A stretch of 64,000 nt of DNA, taken from IMG/VR virus record IMGVR_UViG_3300001605_000025, positions 1 through 64,000 of that record. The stretch is one strand, 5' to 3'. The notes beneath the pieces were generated by a model, which did not search any database, had not been told where the DNA came from, and saw only the letters and a program-made list of their open reading frames with translations. The position numbers were made by a program, and so were the translations under genes. Source of the DNA: a virus (lineage: Duplodnaviria; Heunggongvirae; Uroviricota; Caudoviricetes). Shown piece by piece: positions 61,973 through 64,000 of the stretch (positions within the stretch are counted from its first letter, which is position 1; the number at the start of each line of letters is the position of its first letter).

Positions 61973-63496
61973 TTACCCCGTTAAAAAAGTATAGTGTTCA
62001 ATATCCTTTAACATTGTTCCACGATCAGCTTCAAACATTGGAACAAACTTGAATACTGCATCGCTGTATCCACTAATCGGACATGTTAACGGATCCGACT
62101 CTGGAATCTTAAGTAGTCCGTAAGACGATACATCGAAACTATACAGTCTACAGTTCGGATTGACTTTCATCCTGTACTGTTTAAGCACATCCTGAACGTC
62201 ACTACCGTACCCGTAGCTATTATAGCACTGCATATCGGAGAACAAGAAGATCCGATCGTAGAACTGGTTCTTCGATAATATATCAGTTATTGCTAACCAA
62301 GCATTAGTAGAATGACCAACGTCAGTAGTAGCAACTTTCTGCATATTAGTAAGAATGCTGTCACGTTTAGATAACGGTACAGTCTTGTAAGTTTGTCCGA
62401 ACGCACCAACTGTTGCCTCCTCACATACATGTAACGAGATTGCACTGAACAGTGATGCGATATCAATGCACTGAACAGTACTCTTATCGGAAACGTCTGA
62501 ATGCATCGATCCACTGTTATCAGACGCAATAAATGTCTTGCCTGATATCCGTGGAACATTCTCAACGGATATAGTCATTGCATCGTTTATCGCATCCAGA
62601 ACTTTTGTAGGTCCACCTACCTCACGGTAAGCACTGAAGAACCTATAGGGGAACTGTTTACTTTTCCGTACAGCAACAGGATCCGTTAACCGCTTCAGAT
62701 AAAGATTCATATCAACATCATGCTTCTGGAAGTTTCTTAAGTTCCTCAGTAGCGCCATGTAGCCCATCTTTGGAATTACTTCCTCCCATGTCCTCTTAGA
62801 AGCACCGTTCTTCGAAATGTGAGTCTCCCAAGTAAACGGAGTCTCCAATGTTCCGTTGATAATCTTATCATACAGTACCTGTTGTTCTGCAGATTTCGGT
62901 TTCGGATGTGTCAGGAAGATAACATCTTTCAGTGTTACCTTTCCTTCACGATTATACTTCGCCAGCTGGTATTCATCAAACTGGTTTAACGCATCACTAA
63001 TACCCTTCTTTAGCATTCCAGGTATCGGAGCGAATGTCTTCGGTACATACTTCTTACCTTGAGCTTCAAGTGAGGCTTTCCGTTTCGCTTCTACTTCTGG
63101 GTTAATAGGTGACGACGCTAAAAAGTATGCTATCGCTTCTGCGGGTTCGTCAGCTCTCCGAAGAATACTTGAAACATATTTATACGCACCTTCCAGTTTA
63201 GTTCCAGCCTTAGCATACTCAACTAATAGAAACACAGGAACAGTTCTCAAGTACATTTCGTTCCGTGCATATGCCGCCAACTTCGGTACGTACTCAGGAT
63301 CGTTTACACTGATCCGTTTAACAAGATTCAGTATAGCATCGCTAGTCTGTTTCTCCTTCGTATAGTATGAGTCTCCAGACATCATAAACGACATCGTGTG
63401 GAGCATCAATGCTAACTTGTCAGAAGGCTTATACGCTTCCGCCCCCTCATAGTTAACGGGTTTCGTTCCGTTTGGTTTTGCATTAAATCTCGCCAT
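61973..63496 (-). CDS. rsr: Ro60-related TROVE domain protein with C-terminal vWA/MIDAS
   Basis: NYEGAEAY, GDSYYTKE, AAYARNEMYLRTVPVFLL, YMALLRNLRN, KQFPYRFFSAY, MIDAS FIASDNSGSM and DRIFLFSDMQ are collinear by eye with human Ro60 (LTALLRNLGKM, RIHPFHIL, LLAVDVSASM, DVFIVFTDNE). Confidence 0.85.
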   Translation of the reverse strand: MARFNAKPNGTKPVNYEGAEAYKPSDKLALMLHTMSFMMSGDSYYTKEKQTSDAILNLVKRISVNDPEYVPKLAAYARNEMYLRTVPVFLLVEYAKAGTKLEGAYKYVSSILRRADEPAEAIAYFLASSPINPEVEAKRKASLEAQGKKYVPKTFAPIPGMLKKGISDALNQFDEYQLAKYNREGKVTLKDVIFLTHPKPKSAEQQVLYDKIINGTLETPFTWETHISKNGASKRTWEEVIPKMGYMALLRNLRNFQKHDVDMNLYLKRLTDPVAVRKSKQFPYRFFSAYREVGGPTKVLDAINDAMTISVENVPRISGKTFIASDNSGSMHSDVSDKSTVQCIDIASLFSAISLHVCEEATVGAFGQTYKTVPLSKRDSILTNMQKVATTDVGHSTNAWLAITDILSKNQFYDRIFLFSDMQCYNSYGYGSDVQDVLKQYRMKVNPNCRLYSFDVSSYGLLKIPESDPLTCPISGYSDAVFKFVPMFEADRGTMLKDIEHYTFLTG

Positions 63497-63538
63497 AACA
63501 CTTCTCCAGTATTAGGTATTCGGACTTCGGTACTTAAC

Positions 63539-63619
63539 GGTAACGGGTGGGAGTTGAACCCACACTGACTATCATCGTACTTGTCAGCTCCACCATGTAC
63601 GACAGGGCAATTCCGTTAC
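63539..63619 (-). ncRNA. tRNA-like element A (no canonical anticodon loop)
   Basis: Perfect 7-bp acceptor stem GTAACGG/CCGTTAC and canonical T arm GTGGG-TTCAACT-CCCAC. The middle folds instead as CTGAC-13 nt-GTCAG or TCGTAC-16 nt-GTACGA. There are 4 nt, not 2, between the acceptor and a D-like stem. Confidence 0.45.
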
Positions 63620-63622
63620 CAA

Positions 63623-63753
63623 TGTGACTGCTGGGATTTGAACCCAGGTCGCTCGCGTGGAAGGCGAAGTAACTGTCAACTACGCCACTCTCTTAAGGGT
63701 ACAACCGTTTACAGCTATGTTAAGCATGATGAACCGTACTACACTACAGTCAC
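63623..63753 (-). tRNA. tRNA-Gly(UCC)-like gene with about 60-nt insertion / duplicated 5' half
   Basis: Canonical anticodon arm TTCGC-CTTCCAC-GCGAG and T arm CTGGG-TTCAAAT-CCCAG, with 3' acceptor strand CAGTCAC. The perfect partner GTGACTG, with U8, A14 and G18G19, lies at 63747-63753. A degenerate copy (GAGAGTG) lies at 63686-63692. Confidence 0.45.
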
Positions 63754-63767
63754 TACATTAATTGTAT

Positions 63768-63852
63768 GACAGGTGGGGGGGTTATATCCTCTCCGCTTAC
63801 AGATGGAAGCGTCTTTTACCGAGGTGCTTTACCTCTGACCATCGTACCTGTC
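63768..63852. ncRNA. 85-nt structured element closed by a 7-bp stem (GACAGGT/ACCTGTC)
   Basis: Internal hairpins CGCTT-8 nt-AAGCG and GAGGT-5 nt-ACCTC. It is not a cloverleaf on either strand. Strand unresolved. Confidence 0.25.
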
Positions 63853-63952
63853 ACTAGTAATGATTGGAGGAACAATCGTTAACGGTGTTATTCCGGTAAG
63901 TCTGAAGTAACCGTTAACTTTACCATCCAATCTCTAACATATCGTTAGATAG

Positions 63953-64000
63953 TGAGTCTGTCCGGATTTGAACCGGAACCTCTTCATCCACAGTGAAGTA
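63953..64000 (-). tRNA. tRNA-His(GUG), 3' portion (5' part lies beyond the window end)
   Basis: T arm TCCGG-TTCAAAT-CCGGA. Anticodon arm CTTCA-CTGTGGA-TGAAG with U33, GUG and G37. 3' acceptor strand CAGACTC plus discriminator A. CCA is not encoded. Confidence 0.8.

What the first reader, a model, noticed from the sequence alone, without database searches (positions are those of the whole stretch)
61973..64000. Ro60/TROVE protein in a virus, immediately downstream of a cluster of tRNA and aberrant tRNA-like elements (candidate Y-RNA-like partners)
The 507-aa protein carries the TROVE and vWA/MIDAS motifs of Ro60/Rsr.

In bacteria, and in some phages, rsr genes are accompanied by adjacent Y RNAs (YrlA type). 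Those RNAs contain tRNA-like modules and tether Ro to other RNA-processing enzymes.

Here the 500 nt directly upstream on the same strand contain one bona fide tRNA-His, one tRNA-Gly-like gene with an insertion, one tRNA-like element without an anticodon loop, and two further stem-loop elements. That is the type of neighbourhood expected for Ro-associated ncRNAs.

The elements do not show the published YrlA topology, in which the 5' and 3' ends lie in the Ro-binding stem. They could therefore be a different solution.

To my knowledge Ro has been described mainly in bacteria and eukaryotes. A Ro gene in a virus with an archaeal-looking replisome would be unusual.
Basis: partly seen in the sequence, partly recalled or inferred. 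Interest (0 to 1): 0.8.

Follow-up and report, generated by a model that had tools for sequence, protein, structure and literature searches.

The report
Viral Ro60 with Y-RNA/tRNA-chimera array
A tailed virus, probably of archaea, encodes a Ro60 RNA-binding protein preceded by a tandem array of about ten small RNAs carrying a conserved candidate Ro-binding stem; some are tRNA-shaped in a topology I found described nowhere, which bears on how Y RNAs arose from tRNAs.

Summary
The protein is a genuine Ro60: TROVE plus Ro60-vWA domains, a MIDAS motif, and a predicted ring matching solved Ro60 structures.

The upstream elements are neither ordinary tRNAs nor pseudogenes. ARAGORN in default mode finds no tRNA. 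On the full contig they belong to a roughly 1.1-kb array of about ten modules, five of them in the window. Eight modules share one Y-RNA stem: helix, bulged pyrimidine, 2 bp, asymmetric loop (5' CG[U/A]A), 8-bp helix, then invariant UACUUC. The stem recurs beside Ro genes on the Ro strand in dozens of loci and covaries strongly. Units with a tRNA-like interior in a related locus give sub-threshold Rfam YrlA hits.

Window 63862-63931 is a minimal Y RNA with normal topology. This is the circular permutation of YrlA. Twenty-five strong members occur in 19 loci, including HGTV-1's "tRNA-Asp + intron".

Ro60 with upstream Y RNAs in phages, and Ro60 in archaeal viruses, are already known. The topology and array size appear new. 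Binding and expression are untested.

The parts
61973..63496 (-). Ro60 (TROVE + vWA/MIDAS) gene, 507 aa
   Evidence: ORF. Pfam TROVE 2.1e-30 and vWA_Ro60 3.4e-10. PDB sequence hits to phiLo Ro60 at 2.4e-34 and D. radiodurans Rsr at 5e-5. Model pLDDT 86; Foldseek TM 0.73-0.79 to 9KOP/9L5Y and 0.69 to 2NVO.
63497..63538 (-). Leader of the Ro mRNA. It holds the Shine-Dalgarno sequence GGAG (63504-63507) and the conserved motif GAAGUCCGAAUACCUAAU (63511-63528).
   Evidence: Sequence. The same motif sits in the same place in relatives L096, L097, L098 and L100. Its function is unknown. A Ro autoregulatory site is a speculation.
63539..63620 (-). U10: terminal tRNA-like element. It has an 8-bp acceptor-like stem (GGUAACGG/CCGUUACC) and a canonical T arm, but no D or anticodon arm. 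It is a probable processing signal that frees the Ro mRNA.
   Evidence: Rfam tRNA-Sec 29.4 bits (below the gathering score) and a T-arm match at 63547-63563. Fold z-score -2.1. Relatives L096 and L097 carry an acceptor-plus-T-arm element with different but paired closing stems just before the same leader. Neither R1 nor R2 hits it.
63623..63753 (-). Parts: acceptor GUGACUG/CAGUCAC; D arm; closed Y-stem hairpin at 63673-63714; UUAC; anticodon-like arm at 63652-63668 (loop CUUCCAC); T arm at 63631-63647.
   Evidence: CM R1 115.9 bits, E 1.5e-29 (it is one of the seed sequences). The class covaries in 25 sequences: 89.3% of cells paired against 64% when shuffled, 30 of 34 pairs with compensatory changes. 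Anatomy.
63766..63854 (-). U8: stem-closed element (GACAGGU/ACCUGUC) without the Y motif. Its class is unassigned.
   Evidence: Fold z-score only -1.7. A short conserved start, UGACAG + hairpin + GGACG, is present at the equivalent place in L096 and L097. Evidence is weak.
63862..63931 (-). U7: minimal Y RNA of normal topology (YrlB-like). Layout: distal helix AUUGGA/UCCAAU, bulged U, GG/CC, asymmetric loop (UAAA opposite GAUUGUU), 8-9-bp helix GUUAACGG(U)/(A)CCGUUAAC, then UACUUC in the apical loop.
   Evidence: CM R2 65.1 bits, E 7.8e-14 (it is one of the seed sequences). The MFE structure equals the model structure, z-score -2.35. The stem covaries in 45 sequences: 92.2% paired against 63.7% when shuffled.
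63953..64000 (-). U6, 3' part only (cut by the window end): anticodon-like arm (loop CUGUGGA), T arm and the acceptor 3' strand of a second class-C RNA.
   Evidence: Rfam tRNA 34.5 bits, truncated at the 5' end. R1 39.2 bits, truncated. The full unit on the identical contig, L002 9421-9544, scores R1 113 bits and has its Y stem closed by a GAAA loop.

Best explanation
This is a viral Ro60-Y RNA module of a known kind, with an unusually large and diverse RNA complement.

Shown:
- The gene encodes a Ro60 ring protein.
- It is preceded on the same strand by a terminator-free array of about ten small structured RNAs. Five are in the window, the rest just beyond it.
- Eight of the ten carry one conserved, covarying stem of the architecture known for Ro-binding sites: helix, bulged pyrimidine, 2 bp, asymmetric internal loop with 5'-CG[U/A]A, then a helix followed by invariant UACUUC.
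- The stem comes in three formats:
  (A) a bare hairpin, YrlB-like (U7 in the window);
  (B) the stem holds the RNA ends and encloses a T arm and a closed acceptor-like hairpin, YrlA-like (U4 and U5, outside the window);
  (C) a full cloverleaf with open 7-bp acceptor stem, D arm, T arm and an anticodon-like arm, with the Ro-type stem as a closed hairpin between D arm and anticodon-like arm (U6 and U9).

Inferred mechanism:
- The array is transcribed together with the Ro gene.
- Host RNase P and tRNase Z cut at the tRNA-shaped modules (U6, U9, U10). This releases the individual RNAs and the Ro mRNA.
- Ro60 binds the conserved internal loop of each Y stem.
- The variable moiety (small loop, or tRNA-like body with different anticodon-like loops) tethers Ro to different host partners, such as tRNA-binding enzymes or a 3'-5' exonuclease. 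The virus would thereby redirect host RNA decay or quality control during infection, as proposed for the bacterial RYPER complex and for phage phiLo.

Format C is the un-permuted counterpart of YrlA. A tandem duplication converts one format into the other.
For: Protein.

Array and co-orientation:
- The 1.1-kb gap lies on an identical 74.8-kb contig.
- No terminator-like site is found on the coding strand inside the array.
- Relatives with 52-62% Ro identity also have 0.7-1.6-kb noncoding gaps before Ro, holding 4-5 units that alternate between formats A/B and C.

Conserved stem:
- The motif is found beside Ro on the Ro strand in 24 of 101 loci.
- CM R2 gives 88 hits, 87 of them on the Ro strand.
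- Across 45 sequences 92.2% of cells are paired against 63.7% when shuffled and about 52% when the partner is slid. Seven of 8 pairs of the inner helix covary, and UACUUC is invariant in 45 of 45.

Family link:
- Units of format B in L011 hit Rfam YrlA along its full length at 36-37 bits, E about 3e-6.
- The CG[U/A]A motif sits in the internal loop at the position of the GNCGAA/CGAA motif. That motif is protected by Rsr (PMC4201824), and each of its nucleotides matters for phiLo Ro60 binding (PMC12135203).

Format C:
- 25 hits of 45-131 bits in 19 loci.
- 89.3% of cells paired against 64% when shuffled. All 7 acceptor pairs and all 8 inner-helix pairs show compensatory changes.
- 17 of 25 have a 4-5-bp stem with a 7-nt loop CU-NNN-R-(A/C).

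Processing precedent: M. smegmatis YrlA is cut by RNase P and receives CCA, and Y RNAs are made from polycistronic precursors together with tRNA (PMC4201824).
Against: - There are no expression, processing or binding data for any of these RNAs.
- Rfam YrlA gives no hit in the window or in L002, even at E <= 10. The hits in relatives are far below the gathering score (37 against 69 bits).
- Within this array the CGAA-equivalent is variable (CGAA, CAAA, CGUA, CACU, CAUU, UAAA). Some units may therefore bind weakly or not at all.
- In U6 the inner helix has only 6 of 8 pairs. In U9 the distal helix is nearly absent.
- U8 and U10 lack the stem, and their role is guessed.
- The effector is unknown. 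If the host is archaeal it has no PNPase.
- CM alignments lean towards the model structure.
Confidence: 0.72

Rival explanations
1. The tRNA-shaped units (U6, U9 and their relatives) are real decoding tRNA genes for His, Gly, Thr, Gln and others, interrupted by an archaeal-type intron. The splicing endonuclease removes the intron. Ro is unrelated, or only a neighbour.
For: - ARAGORN with the intron option calls them tRNAs with 30-58-nt introns.
- The Rfam tRNA model scores relatives at 35-45 bits, above its threshold.
- HGTV-1's copy is annotated 'tRNA-Asp + intron' (PMC13532342).
- Acceptor stems are 7 bp, the T and D loops are canonical, and the anticodon-like loops are CU-NNN-RA.
Against: - The 'intron' lies between D arm and anticodon arm, not at 37/38.
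- By inspection I found no bulge-helix-bulge motif. The 4 nt that follow the helix are invariant UUAC and have no GUAA-type partner in the AU-rich 5' linker.
- The inserted sequence is not free to vary as introns are. It is the same conserved, covarying stem that also occurs as free-standing hairpins without any tRNA body.
- These elements cluster with Ro genes in 19 loci.
- ARAGORN's intron calls disagree with the structure: it reads U6 as Val and U9 as Trp.
Confidence: 0.1
2. The tRNA-shaped units are bifunctional: aminoacylatable tRNAs that keep the extra arm. The viral Ro60 binds, protects, sequesters or quality-controls a private pool of viral tRNAs, for example against host anticodon nucleases.
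For: - The cloverleaves are complete, with open acceptor stems and discriminator bases (A in 16 of 25).
- The anticodon-like loops are canonical and recurrent (GUG, YUG, UGU).
- The extra arm leaves the core next to where long variable arms emerge (inference).
- Known links exist between Ro operons and tRNA damage and repair (PMC7790460).
- M. smegmatis YrlA gains a CCA end (PMC4201824).
Against: - Nothing shows charging or decoding.
- The 'His' units lack the G-1:C73 identity pair. They have A73 and no extra 5' G paired with it.
- YrlA-type units with a closed acceptor hairpin, which cannot be charged without cleavage, carry similar anticodon-like arms (L011). The arm therefore does not imply decoding.
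Confidence: 0.1
3. The elements are decayed tRNA genes and fortuitous hairpins in a long 5' leader. At most they are a cis-acting structure regulating Ro translation.
For: - They lie directly upstream of Ro.
- ARAGORN finds no tRNA.
- Single-sequence folding z-scores are modest, from -1.1 to -2.6.
Against: - There are compensatory changes in every helix across loci whose Ro proteins are only 35-45% identical.
- The same modules lie downstream of Ro in other loci (L011, L012, L016, L018). They are therefore not a leader.
- UACUUC is invariant in 45 of 45 units.
Confidence: 0.04

Closest known systems
Bacterial YrlA / YrlB Y RNAs (Rfam RF02553; Chen et al. 2014, PMC4201824; Wang et al. 2018, bioRxiv 10.1101/312249)
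   Same: - Encoded within a few hundred nt of Ro on the same strand.
- Several per locus.
- A Ro-type stem with a CGAA-like motif in an internal loop, followed by a YUAY (here WUAC) element.
- A tRNA-like module with T arm, D arm and acceptor stem in some units, and bare hairpins (YrlB-like) in others.
- Related units in L011 hit RF02553 along its full length.
   Different: - Scores are far below the Rfam gathering score, and the window gives no hit at all.
- In U6 and U9 the RNA ends are in a normal acceptor stem and the Ro-type stem is a closed internal hairpin. YrlA has the reverse arrangement (ends in the Ro stem, acceptor closed).
- A full anticodon-like arm with a 7-nt loop is present, which S. 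Typhimurium YrlA lacks.
- About ten units per array rather than two.
Thermus phage phiLo Ro60 with Yrl1 and Yrl2 (PMC12135203; PDB 9KOP, 9L5Y)
   Same: - Phage-encoded Ro60 with Y-RNA-like hairpins in the upstream noncoding region.
- It is the closest solved structure to this protein.
- A stem-bulge-stem RNA with a CGAA motif that contributes to binding.
   Different: - 23-24% protein identity.
- phiLo has two simple hairpin RNAs, and no tRNA-shaped units are reported.
- Its host is a bacterium with PNPase. Here the host is probably archaeal and the effector is unknown.
M. smegmatis YrlA and D. radiodurans Yrn1 (PMC4201824)
   Same: - M. smegmatis YrlA has a 7-bp acceptor stem, is cut by RNase P and receives CCA. 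After cleavage it therefore exposes tRNA-like ends, as U6 and U9 would natively.
- Yrn1 has D-like, anticodon-like and T arms in tRNA order.
   Different: - In M. smegmatis the open acceptor arises by cleavage of a closed loop, and the Ro stem still holds the primary ends.
- In Yrn1 the Ro-binding stem takes the place of the acceptor stem. Here it is an extra fifth helix.
HGTV-1 'tRNA-Asp (gtc) + intron' (NC_021328 70440-70571)
   Same: It has the same class-C architecture (R1 78 bits) and lies 3 kb upstream of that archaeal virus's TROVE gene on the same strand.
   Different: It is annotated as an intron-containing tRNA and has not been linked to Ro (PMC13532342 says only that one tRNA carries an intron). 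Its anticodon-like arm is irregular.
Circularly permuted and intron-containing tRNA genes of archaea and algae
   Same: The relation between class C and YrlA is a circular permutation of a tRNA-like body. It was discussed as a possible origin of YrlA in bioRxiv 10.1101/312249.
   Different: Those genes are processed through bulge-helix-bulge motifs into ordinary tRNAs. No such motif is seen here, and the extra stem is itself the conserved part.

Membership tests
Ro60 / Rsr (TROVE family) | TROVE (HEAT-repeat ring) domain | tested here: met
   Pfam PF05731, 2.1e-30, 106.7 bits against a cut-off of 23. The helical region at residues 26-313 superposes on solved Ro60 rings.
Ro60 / Rsr (TROVE family) | C-terminal vWA domain with a MIDAS motif | tested here: met
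   PF25045 vWA_Ro60, 3.4e-10. D326-x-S328-x-S330, T397 and D421 are invariant in 20 relatives.
Ro60 / Rsr (TROVE family) | Overall fold equals solved Ro60 structures | tested here: met
   Foldseek: 9KOP TM 0.73/0.79, 2NVO 0.69/0.70, 1YVP about 0.59. All have probability 1.00 and are full length.
Ro60 / Rsr (TROVE family) | Binds Y RNA and misfolded RNA | not testable with these tools
   Needs EMSA or RIP.
YrlA (Rfam RF02553) | Reaches the family's covariance-model gathering score (69 bits) | tested here: not met
   No YrlA hit in window 63300-64000 or L002 8700-10100, even at E <= 5-10. Related canonical units in L011 score 30-37 bits.
YrlA (Rfam RF02553) | Encoded within about 4 kb of Ro60 on the same strand | tested here: met
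   All units lie 40-1100 nt upstream of Ro on its strand.
YrlA (Rfam RF02553) | GNCGAAN0-1G motif near the 5' end, then conserved YUAY | tested here: inconclusive
   The family consensus is RG-CG[U/A]A-G with WUAC 14-15 nt downstream, the same spacing as in the paper. The motif is CGUA more often than CGAA and degenerates in several units of this array (U7 UAAA, U6 CAUU).
YrlA (Rfam RF02553) | 5' and 3' ends paired in the Ro-binding stem and the acceptor-like stem closed by a loop (circularly permuted tRNA) | tested here: not met
   U6 and U9 have an open 7-bp acceptor stem and a closed Ro-type hairpin. U7 has its ends in the stem but no tRNA module (YrlB-like). U4 and U5, outside the window, do have the YrlA arrangement.
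YrlA (Rfam RF02553) | tRNA-like T and D arms able to form the elbow | tested here: met
   T loop GGUUCAAAUCC; D loop with GG; U8 and A14 invariant in class C. The T arm is 99.2% paired with covariation.
tRNA (Rfam RF00005 / ARAGORN) | Recognised as a tRNA by standard detectors | tested here: inconclusive
   ARAGORN in default mode finds none. Rfam scores the truncated U6 at 34.5 bits and its own alignment of the full region at 30.9 bits, against a threshold of 29. U9 is not reported. Relatives score 35-45 bits with a large insertion.
tRNA (Rfam RF00005 / ARAGORN) | Four-arm cloverleaf with nothing but position 26 between D stem and anticodon stem | tested here: not met
   There is a conserved 45-75-nt fifth helix between the D arm and the anticodon-like arm.
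tRNA (Rfam RF00005 / ARAGORN) | Aminoacylation and decoding | not testable with these tools
   The 'His' units lack G-1:C73, which argues against His identity but is not a test.
Archaeal intron-containing tRNA | Bulge-helix-bulge motif at the exon-intron junctions | tested here: not met
   Checked by inspection of the 25-sequence alignment. The junction nucleotides are an AU-rich linker on the 5' side and invariant UUAC on the 3' side, and they do not form a 4-bp helix flanked by 3-nt bulges. No dedicated BHB search tool was available.
Metazoan-type Y RNA (Rfam RF00019) | Conserved bulged helix (GGUCCGA strand) formed by the RNA termini | tested here: inconclusive
   No Rfam hit. The architecture (helix, single bulged pyrimidine, 2 bp, asymmetric loop, helix) is analogous. 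The comparison with vertebrate Y RNA rests on my recollection and on the motif quoted in PMC4201824.

The most novel reading that the evidence does not exclude
The tRNA-topology units are functional, chargeable tRNAs that permanently carry a Ro-binding arm. A virus-encoded Ro60 would then directly hold a private set of tRNAs (His, Gly, Thr, Gln and other anticodons), for example to shield them from host anticodon nucleases or to deliver them for repair. They would also represent the ancestral 'tRNA with a Ro handle' from which circularly permuted YrlA arose by tandem duplication.
Probability: 0.1. Interest if true: 0.9.

Novelty: new variant of a known kind. Interest (0 to 1): 0.62.

Why it matters
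Y RNAs are thought to derive from tRNAs, but the described bacterial forms are either circularly permuted (YrlA) or only loosely tRNA-like (Yrn1). Their effector partners are largely unknown.

A conserved class in which an intact cloverleaf, with open acceptor stem and an anticodon-like arm, carries the Ro-type stem as an extra arm has three consequences:
- It supplies the un-permuted form that the 'dimeric tRNA' origin model needs.
- It offers a simple genetic route between the two topologies, through tandem duplication.
- It gives concrete RNAs for testing which tRNA-binding factors Ro is tethered to.

The result also extends candidate Y RNAs to archaeal viruses, where Ro genes had been noted without partners. 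It re-reads at least one published 'intron-containing viral tRNA' (HGTV-1). It shows that viral Ro loci can carry ten or more Y-RNA modules. Practically, such elements are being missed or mis-annotated by tRNA finders and by the Rfam YrlA model.

Tried and rejected
- ARAGORN in default mode on the window and on related loci found no tRNA in the array. With introns allowed it calls 'tRNAs' whose anticodons disagree with the conserved structure.
- Rfam at gathering and at permissive thresholds gave only a truncated tRNA hit and noise such as mascRNA and tmRNA T-arm fragments.
- megablast of the locus against phage records found no match.
- The search for related loci with the single protein in IMG/VR found nothing. 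With an alignment it found mostly distant relatives. The close relatives had to be fetched one by one.
- A motif-first scan of IMG/VR with GCGTAGN5CGGWTACTTC gave 34 hits. That is roughly my own estimate of what chance gives for 15 fixed bases in a collection of that size. Most hits lie in coding sequence. Only 5 loci pass the stem model, and 4 of those have Ro about 400 nt downstream on the same strand. The scan was therefore not usable as an independent association test.
- The sigma-70 promoter and terminator scan of the array gave chance-level results.
- The splicing (bulge-helix-bulge) reading was rejected by inspection.
- An early idea that the shared motif is a miniature D arm of D-armless tRNAs was rejected. 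The 4 nt before ACRG covary with a distant 3' partner, not with the following UAC.
- The flanking proteins, including the 331-aa ORF just upstream of the array, have no Pfam match. No RNA ligase, nuclease or CCA-adding enzyme was found next to Ro.
- Two reviews (PMC10870794, PMC6047535) are not held. I could not check whether they mention this topology.
- U8 and U10 could not be assigned to a class.

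
Full report
THE PROTEIN

The ORF at 61973-63496 on the minus strand encodes 507 aa.
- It matches Pfam TROVE (2.1e-30) and the Ro60-specific vWA domain (3.4e-10).
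- An alignment with 19 metagenomic relatives of 52-70% identity keeps the MIDAS residues D326-x-S328-x-S330, T397 and D421 invariant.
- By sequence, the nearest solved structures are the Ro60 of Thermus phage phiLo (E 2.4e-34) and D. radiodurans Rsr.
- An AlphaFold model (pLDDT 86, pTM 0.80) superposes over its full length on phiLo Ro60 (TM 0.73-0.79), Rsr (0.69) and Xenopus and human Ro60 (about 0.6).

The protein is a Ro60 orthologue.

THE VIRUS

- The window encodes a distant terminase large subunit, a tail tube and a capsid protein, ribonucleotide reductase, a Cas4-like nuclease and a family B polymerase.
- The polymerase's best matches among sequenced viruses are haloarchaeal tailed viruses, at about 25-28% identity.
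- The best Ro match is the haloarchaeal virus HGTV-1, at 32.6%.
- Close relatives of the locus carry full-length MCM helicases.
- One related Ro locus (39% protein identity) lies on a contig binned into a Methanocella genome.

An archaeal host is likely but not shown.

Ro in viruses is not unusual:
- 105 phage records carry a homologue.
- Chen et al. 2014 listed 22 phages (PMC4201824).
- Asgard 'Nidhogg' viruses encode one (bioRxiv 10.1101/2021.07.29.454249).
- The phiLo protein has been solved and shown to bind two upstream Y-RNA-like hairpins and host PNPase (PMC12135203).

THE UPSTREAM REGION IS NOT A tRNA CLUSTER

- ARAGORN in default mode finds no tRNA in the window or on the full contig.
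- Rfam finds only a tRNA fragment cut by the window end.
- An identical copy of the gene lies on a 74.8-kb assembly (L002). There the noncoding gap before Ro is 1.1 kb, L002 8900-10000. Window coordinate = 73497 minus L002 coordinate.
- In that gap the 11-mer ACRGWTACTTC occurs eight times, always on the Ro strand. In the window it occurs 3 times against 0.19 expected.
- The same 11-mer sits beside Ro genes, on the Ro strand, in 24 of the first 101 loci fetched. Some of those Ro proteins are only 35-43% identical to this one.

THE MOTIF IS THE CORE OF A CONSERVED STEM

Written 5' to 3', the stem is:
1. a distal helix of 5-9 bp;
2. one bulged pyrimidine;
3. 2 bp (GG/CC or AG/CU);
4. an asymmetric internal loop, with CG[U/A]A on the 5' strand and GAYUGUU-like on the 3' strand;
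5. an 8-bp helix (N4-ACRG paired with CYGU-N4');
6. WUAC-UUC, which opens the interior.

A covariance model of this stem (R2) finds 88 matches in the first 97 sources, 87 of them on the Ro strand. On the 45 best matches:
- 92.2% of cells are paired, against 63.7% when partners are shuffled and about 52% when the partner is slid.
- No shuffle out of 500 reaches the observed covariation.
- Seven of the 8 pairs of the inner helix show compensatory changes.
- UACUUC is invariant in 45 of 45.

Three observations link the stem to known Y RNAs:
- The CG[U/A]A loop lies where Chen et al. place the GNCGAAN0-1G motif that Rsr protects. WUAC lies where they place the conserved YUAY (PMC4201824).
- In phiLo each nucleotide of CGAA contributes to Ro60 binding (PMC12135203).
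- Units of this family that enclose a tRNA-like interior (locus L011) hit the Rfam YrlA model along its full length. The scores are only 36-37 bits against a gathering score of 69.

The RNAs are therefore divergent members of the YrlA/YrlB world. By the Rfam criterion they are not members of RF02553.

THREE FORMATS OF THE STEM

Format A is a bare hairpin of 60-95 nt (YrlB-like).
- In L002: U1 (8911-8982), U2 (9002-9073), U3 (9080-9174) and U7 (9566-9635).
- U7 corresponds to window 63862-63931 and scores 65.1 bits, E 8e-14.

Format B has the stem holding the RNA ends and enclosing a T arm and a closed acceptor-like hairpin (YrlA-like).
- In L002: U4 (9187-9311) and U5 (9319-9416), both outside the window.

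Format C is the interesting one. In order it has:
- a 7-bp open acceptor stem, then U8;
- a D arm with the GG dinucleotide;
- an AU-rich linker;
- the 3' strand of the Y stem, a short capping loop (GAAA, CUUG or larger), and the 5' strand of the Y stem;
- UUAC;
- a 4-5-bp arm with a 7-nt loop CU-NNN-R-A/C;
- a 4-5-nt variable loop;
- a canonical T arm;
- the acceptor 3' strand and a discriminator base.

A covariance model built from seven such sequences (R1) finds 25 matches of 45-131 bits in 19 loci. On these 25 sequences:
- 89.3% of cells are paired, against 64.0% when shuffled and 39-53% when slid.
- 30 of 34 pairs show compensatory changes.
- All 7 acceptor pairs and all 8 inner Y-helix pairs covary.
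- The T arm is 99% paired.

One member is the HGTV-1 gene annotated 'tRNA-Asp (gtc) + intron'. It lies 3 kb upstream of that virus's TROVE gene on the same strand. A 2026 re-analysis of HGTV-1 tRNAs notes only that one tRNA has an intron (PMC13532342). Weaker matches to the class-C model occur next to Ro in Chryseobacterium, Chitinophagaceae and a Bacillus cereus-group contig.

CLOSE RELATIVES KEEP THE SAME LAYOUT

Loci whose Ro is 52-62% identical (L096, L097, L098, L100) have 0.7-1.6-kb noncoding gaps before Ro. Each gap holds four or five units that alternate between formats A/B and C.

Two further modules of the window lack the Y stem.
- U10 (63539-63620) has an 8-bp acceptor-like stem and a canonical T arm but no D or anticodon arm. 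Rfam tRNA-Sec scores it at 29 bits, below threshold. L096 and L097 have an equivalent element, with different but paired closing stems, immediately before a conserved Ro leader.
- U8 (about 63766-63854) is closed by a 7-9-bp stem. It shares only a short UGACAG-hairpin-GGACG start with relatives. I leave it unassigned.

HOW IT MOST LIKELY WORKS

Shown:
- a Ro60 gene;
- a co-oriented array of conserved, covarying RNAs with no terminator-like site on the coding strand inside the array;
- a shared stem with the anatomy of a Ro-binding site;
- tRNA-shaped modules with intact acceptor, T and D features.

Inferred:
- The array and Ro are co-transcribed.
- RNase P and tRNase Z cut at U6, U9 and U10. 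This would liberate the Y RNAs and the Ro mRNA. [quoted passage not shown]
- Ro60 binds the internal loop of each stem.
- The diverse interiors tether it to host factors.

Which factor is tethered is unknown, and an archaeal host would lack PNPase. The variety of anticodon-like loops points to tRNA-recognising proteins as partners. In this virus the loops are GUG and UCC. In relatives they are UGU, YUG, GCG, GAU, GCU and UCA.

RIVAL READINGS

'Intron-containing tRNAs' is the existing annotation for one member, and it is what intron-aware tRNA finders report. The evidence is against it:
- The insertion is not at 37/38.
- I see no bulge-helix-bulge motif.
- The inserted sequence is the conserved part, and it also occurs free-standing.

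'Chargeable tRNAs with a Ro handle' cannot be excluded and is the most novel reading. Two points count against it:
- The His-like units lack G-1:C73.
- Similar anticodon-like arms occur in YrlA-type units whose acceptor stem is closed.

'Pseudogenes or a cis-regulatory leader' is contradicted by the covariation and by the position of the same modules downstream of Ro in other loci.

RELATION TO WHAT IS KNOWN

Phage Ro60 with upstream Y RNAs is an established kind.

YrlA has been described as resembling a circularly permuted tRNA, and a dimeric tRNA transcript has been proposed as its origin (bioRxiv 10.1101/312249). Class C is the un-permuted counterpart. In a tandem repeat of class-C units, the segment from one unit's Y-stem 5' strand to the next unit's 3' strand is a YrlA-type unit, and the reverse also holds. 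One duplication therefore converts either topology into the other.

This array gives a hint of such exchange. The Y-stem strands of U6 (class C) and the adjacent U7 (hairpin) are near-identical. The 5' strand of U6 pairs 8 of 8 with the 3' strand of U7, but only 6 of 8 with its own partner.

In the papers I could search and read, I found no description of this topology or of arrays of this size. Two key reviews were not available, so prior description cannot be excluded.

VERDICT

The protein and the Y-RNA idea hold. The 'bona fide tRNA' and the claimed rarity of viral Ro do not. What is there is a new variant of a known system. It has moderate to high interest for RNA biologists, and it rests on comparative evidence only.

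Noticed in passing
window 63511-63528 (-); also L096, L097, L098 and L100 just upstream of the Ro start codon: A conserved leader motif, GAAGUCCGAAUACCUAAU, lies between the last tRNA-like element and the Shine-Dalgarno sequence of Ro. It contains GUCCGA, the core of the vertebrate Ro-contact heptamer GGUCCGA quoted in PMC4201824. It might be an autoregulatory Ro site or simply the mature 5' end of the mRNA.
   Followed up: partly
L001 983-1114 (HGTV-1, NC_021328 70440-70571): The published 'tRNA-Asp (gtc) + intron' of haloarchaeal virus HGTV-1 fits the tRNA-topology Y-RNA model (78 bits). It lies 3 kb upstream of that virus's TROVE gene on the same strand. The annotation probably misreads it.
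   Followed up: yes
L011 5688-7109 (contig Ga0180437_10000024, 358 kb): At least eight tandem Y-RNA units lie directly downstream of a Ro gene: two bare hairpins and six with tRNA-like interiors. Several have 7-nt anticodon-like loops (UCC, AUU, CAU) although the acceptor stem is closed. Four give sub-threshold Rfam YrlA hits, three of them full-length.
   Followed up: partly
L091 2928-3049: One class-C unit has the anticodon-like loop CUUCAGA. The anticodon position reads UCA, which would pair with the UGA stop codon.
   Followed up: no
L002 9478-9502 and 9612-9635 (window 63862-63885 for the latter): The 5' strand of U6's Y stem pairs perfectly with the 3' strand of the neighbouring U7, but imperfectly (6 of 8) with its own partner. 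This suggests recent duplication or alternative pairing between adjacent units.
   Followed up: partly
L130 2479-2637; L153 6428-6563; L164 6145-6275; L141 5426-5549: Weaker class-C-like elements (30-44 bits), with a closed Y-type hairpin inside a tRNA-like frame, lie near Ro genes in a Bacillus cereus-group contig, in Chryseobacterium and in Chitinophagaceae. The topology is therefore not confined to archaeal viruses.
   Followed up: partly
L108 2379-2969 (Methanocella sp. MAG contig DATHCY010000082): This contig carries a Ro gene preceded by two class-C and two canonical Y units. Scores and relative positions equal those in metagenome locus L017, so it is likely the same sequence. It is either a provirus or a virus contig binned with a methanogen, and it gives a hint about the host range of this lineage.
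   Followed up: no
window 44784-45665 (-), 49031-50950 (-), 21250-28389 (+), 901-1800 (-): Other genes in the window: FolE2-type GTP cyclohydrolase I (first step towards 7-deazaguanine/preQ0), ribonucleotide reductase with a TSCPD domain, a 2379-aa ORF among the tail genes, and an SPFH/Band 7 protein.
   Followed up: no
window 63766-63854 (-); L096 3801-3870; L097 3831-3896: A module that begins UGACAG + short hairpin + GGACG recurs at the same relative position in three related arrays. It fits neither RNA model, and its nature is unresolved.
   Followed up: partly
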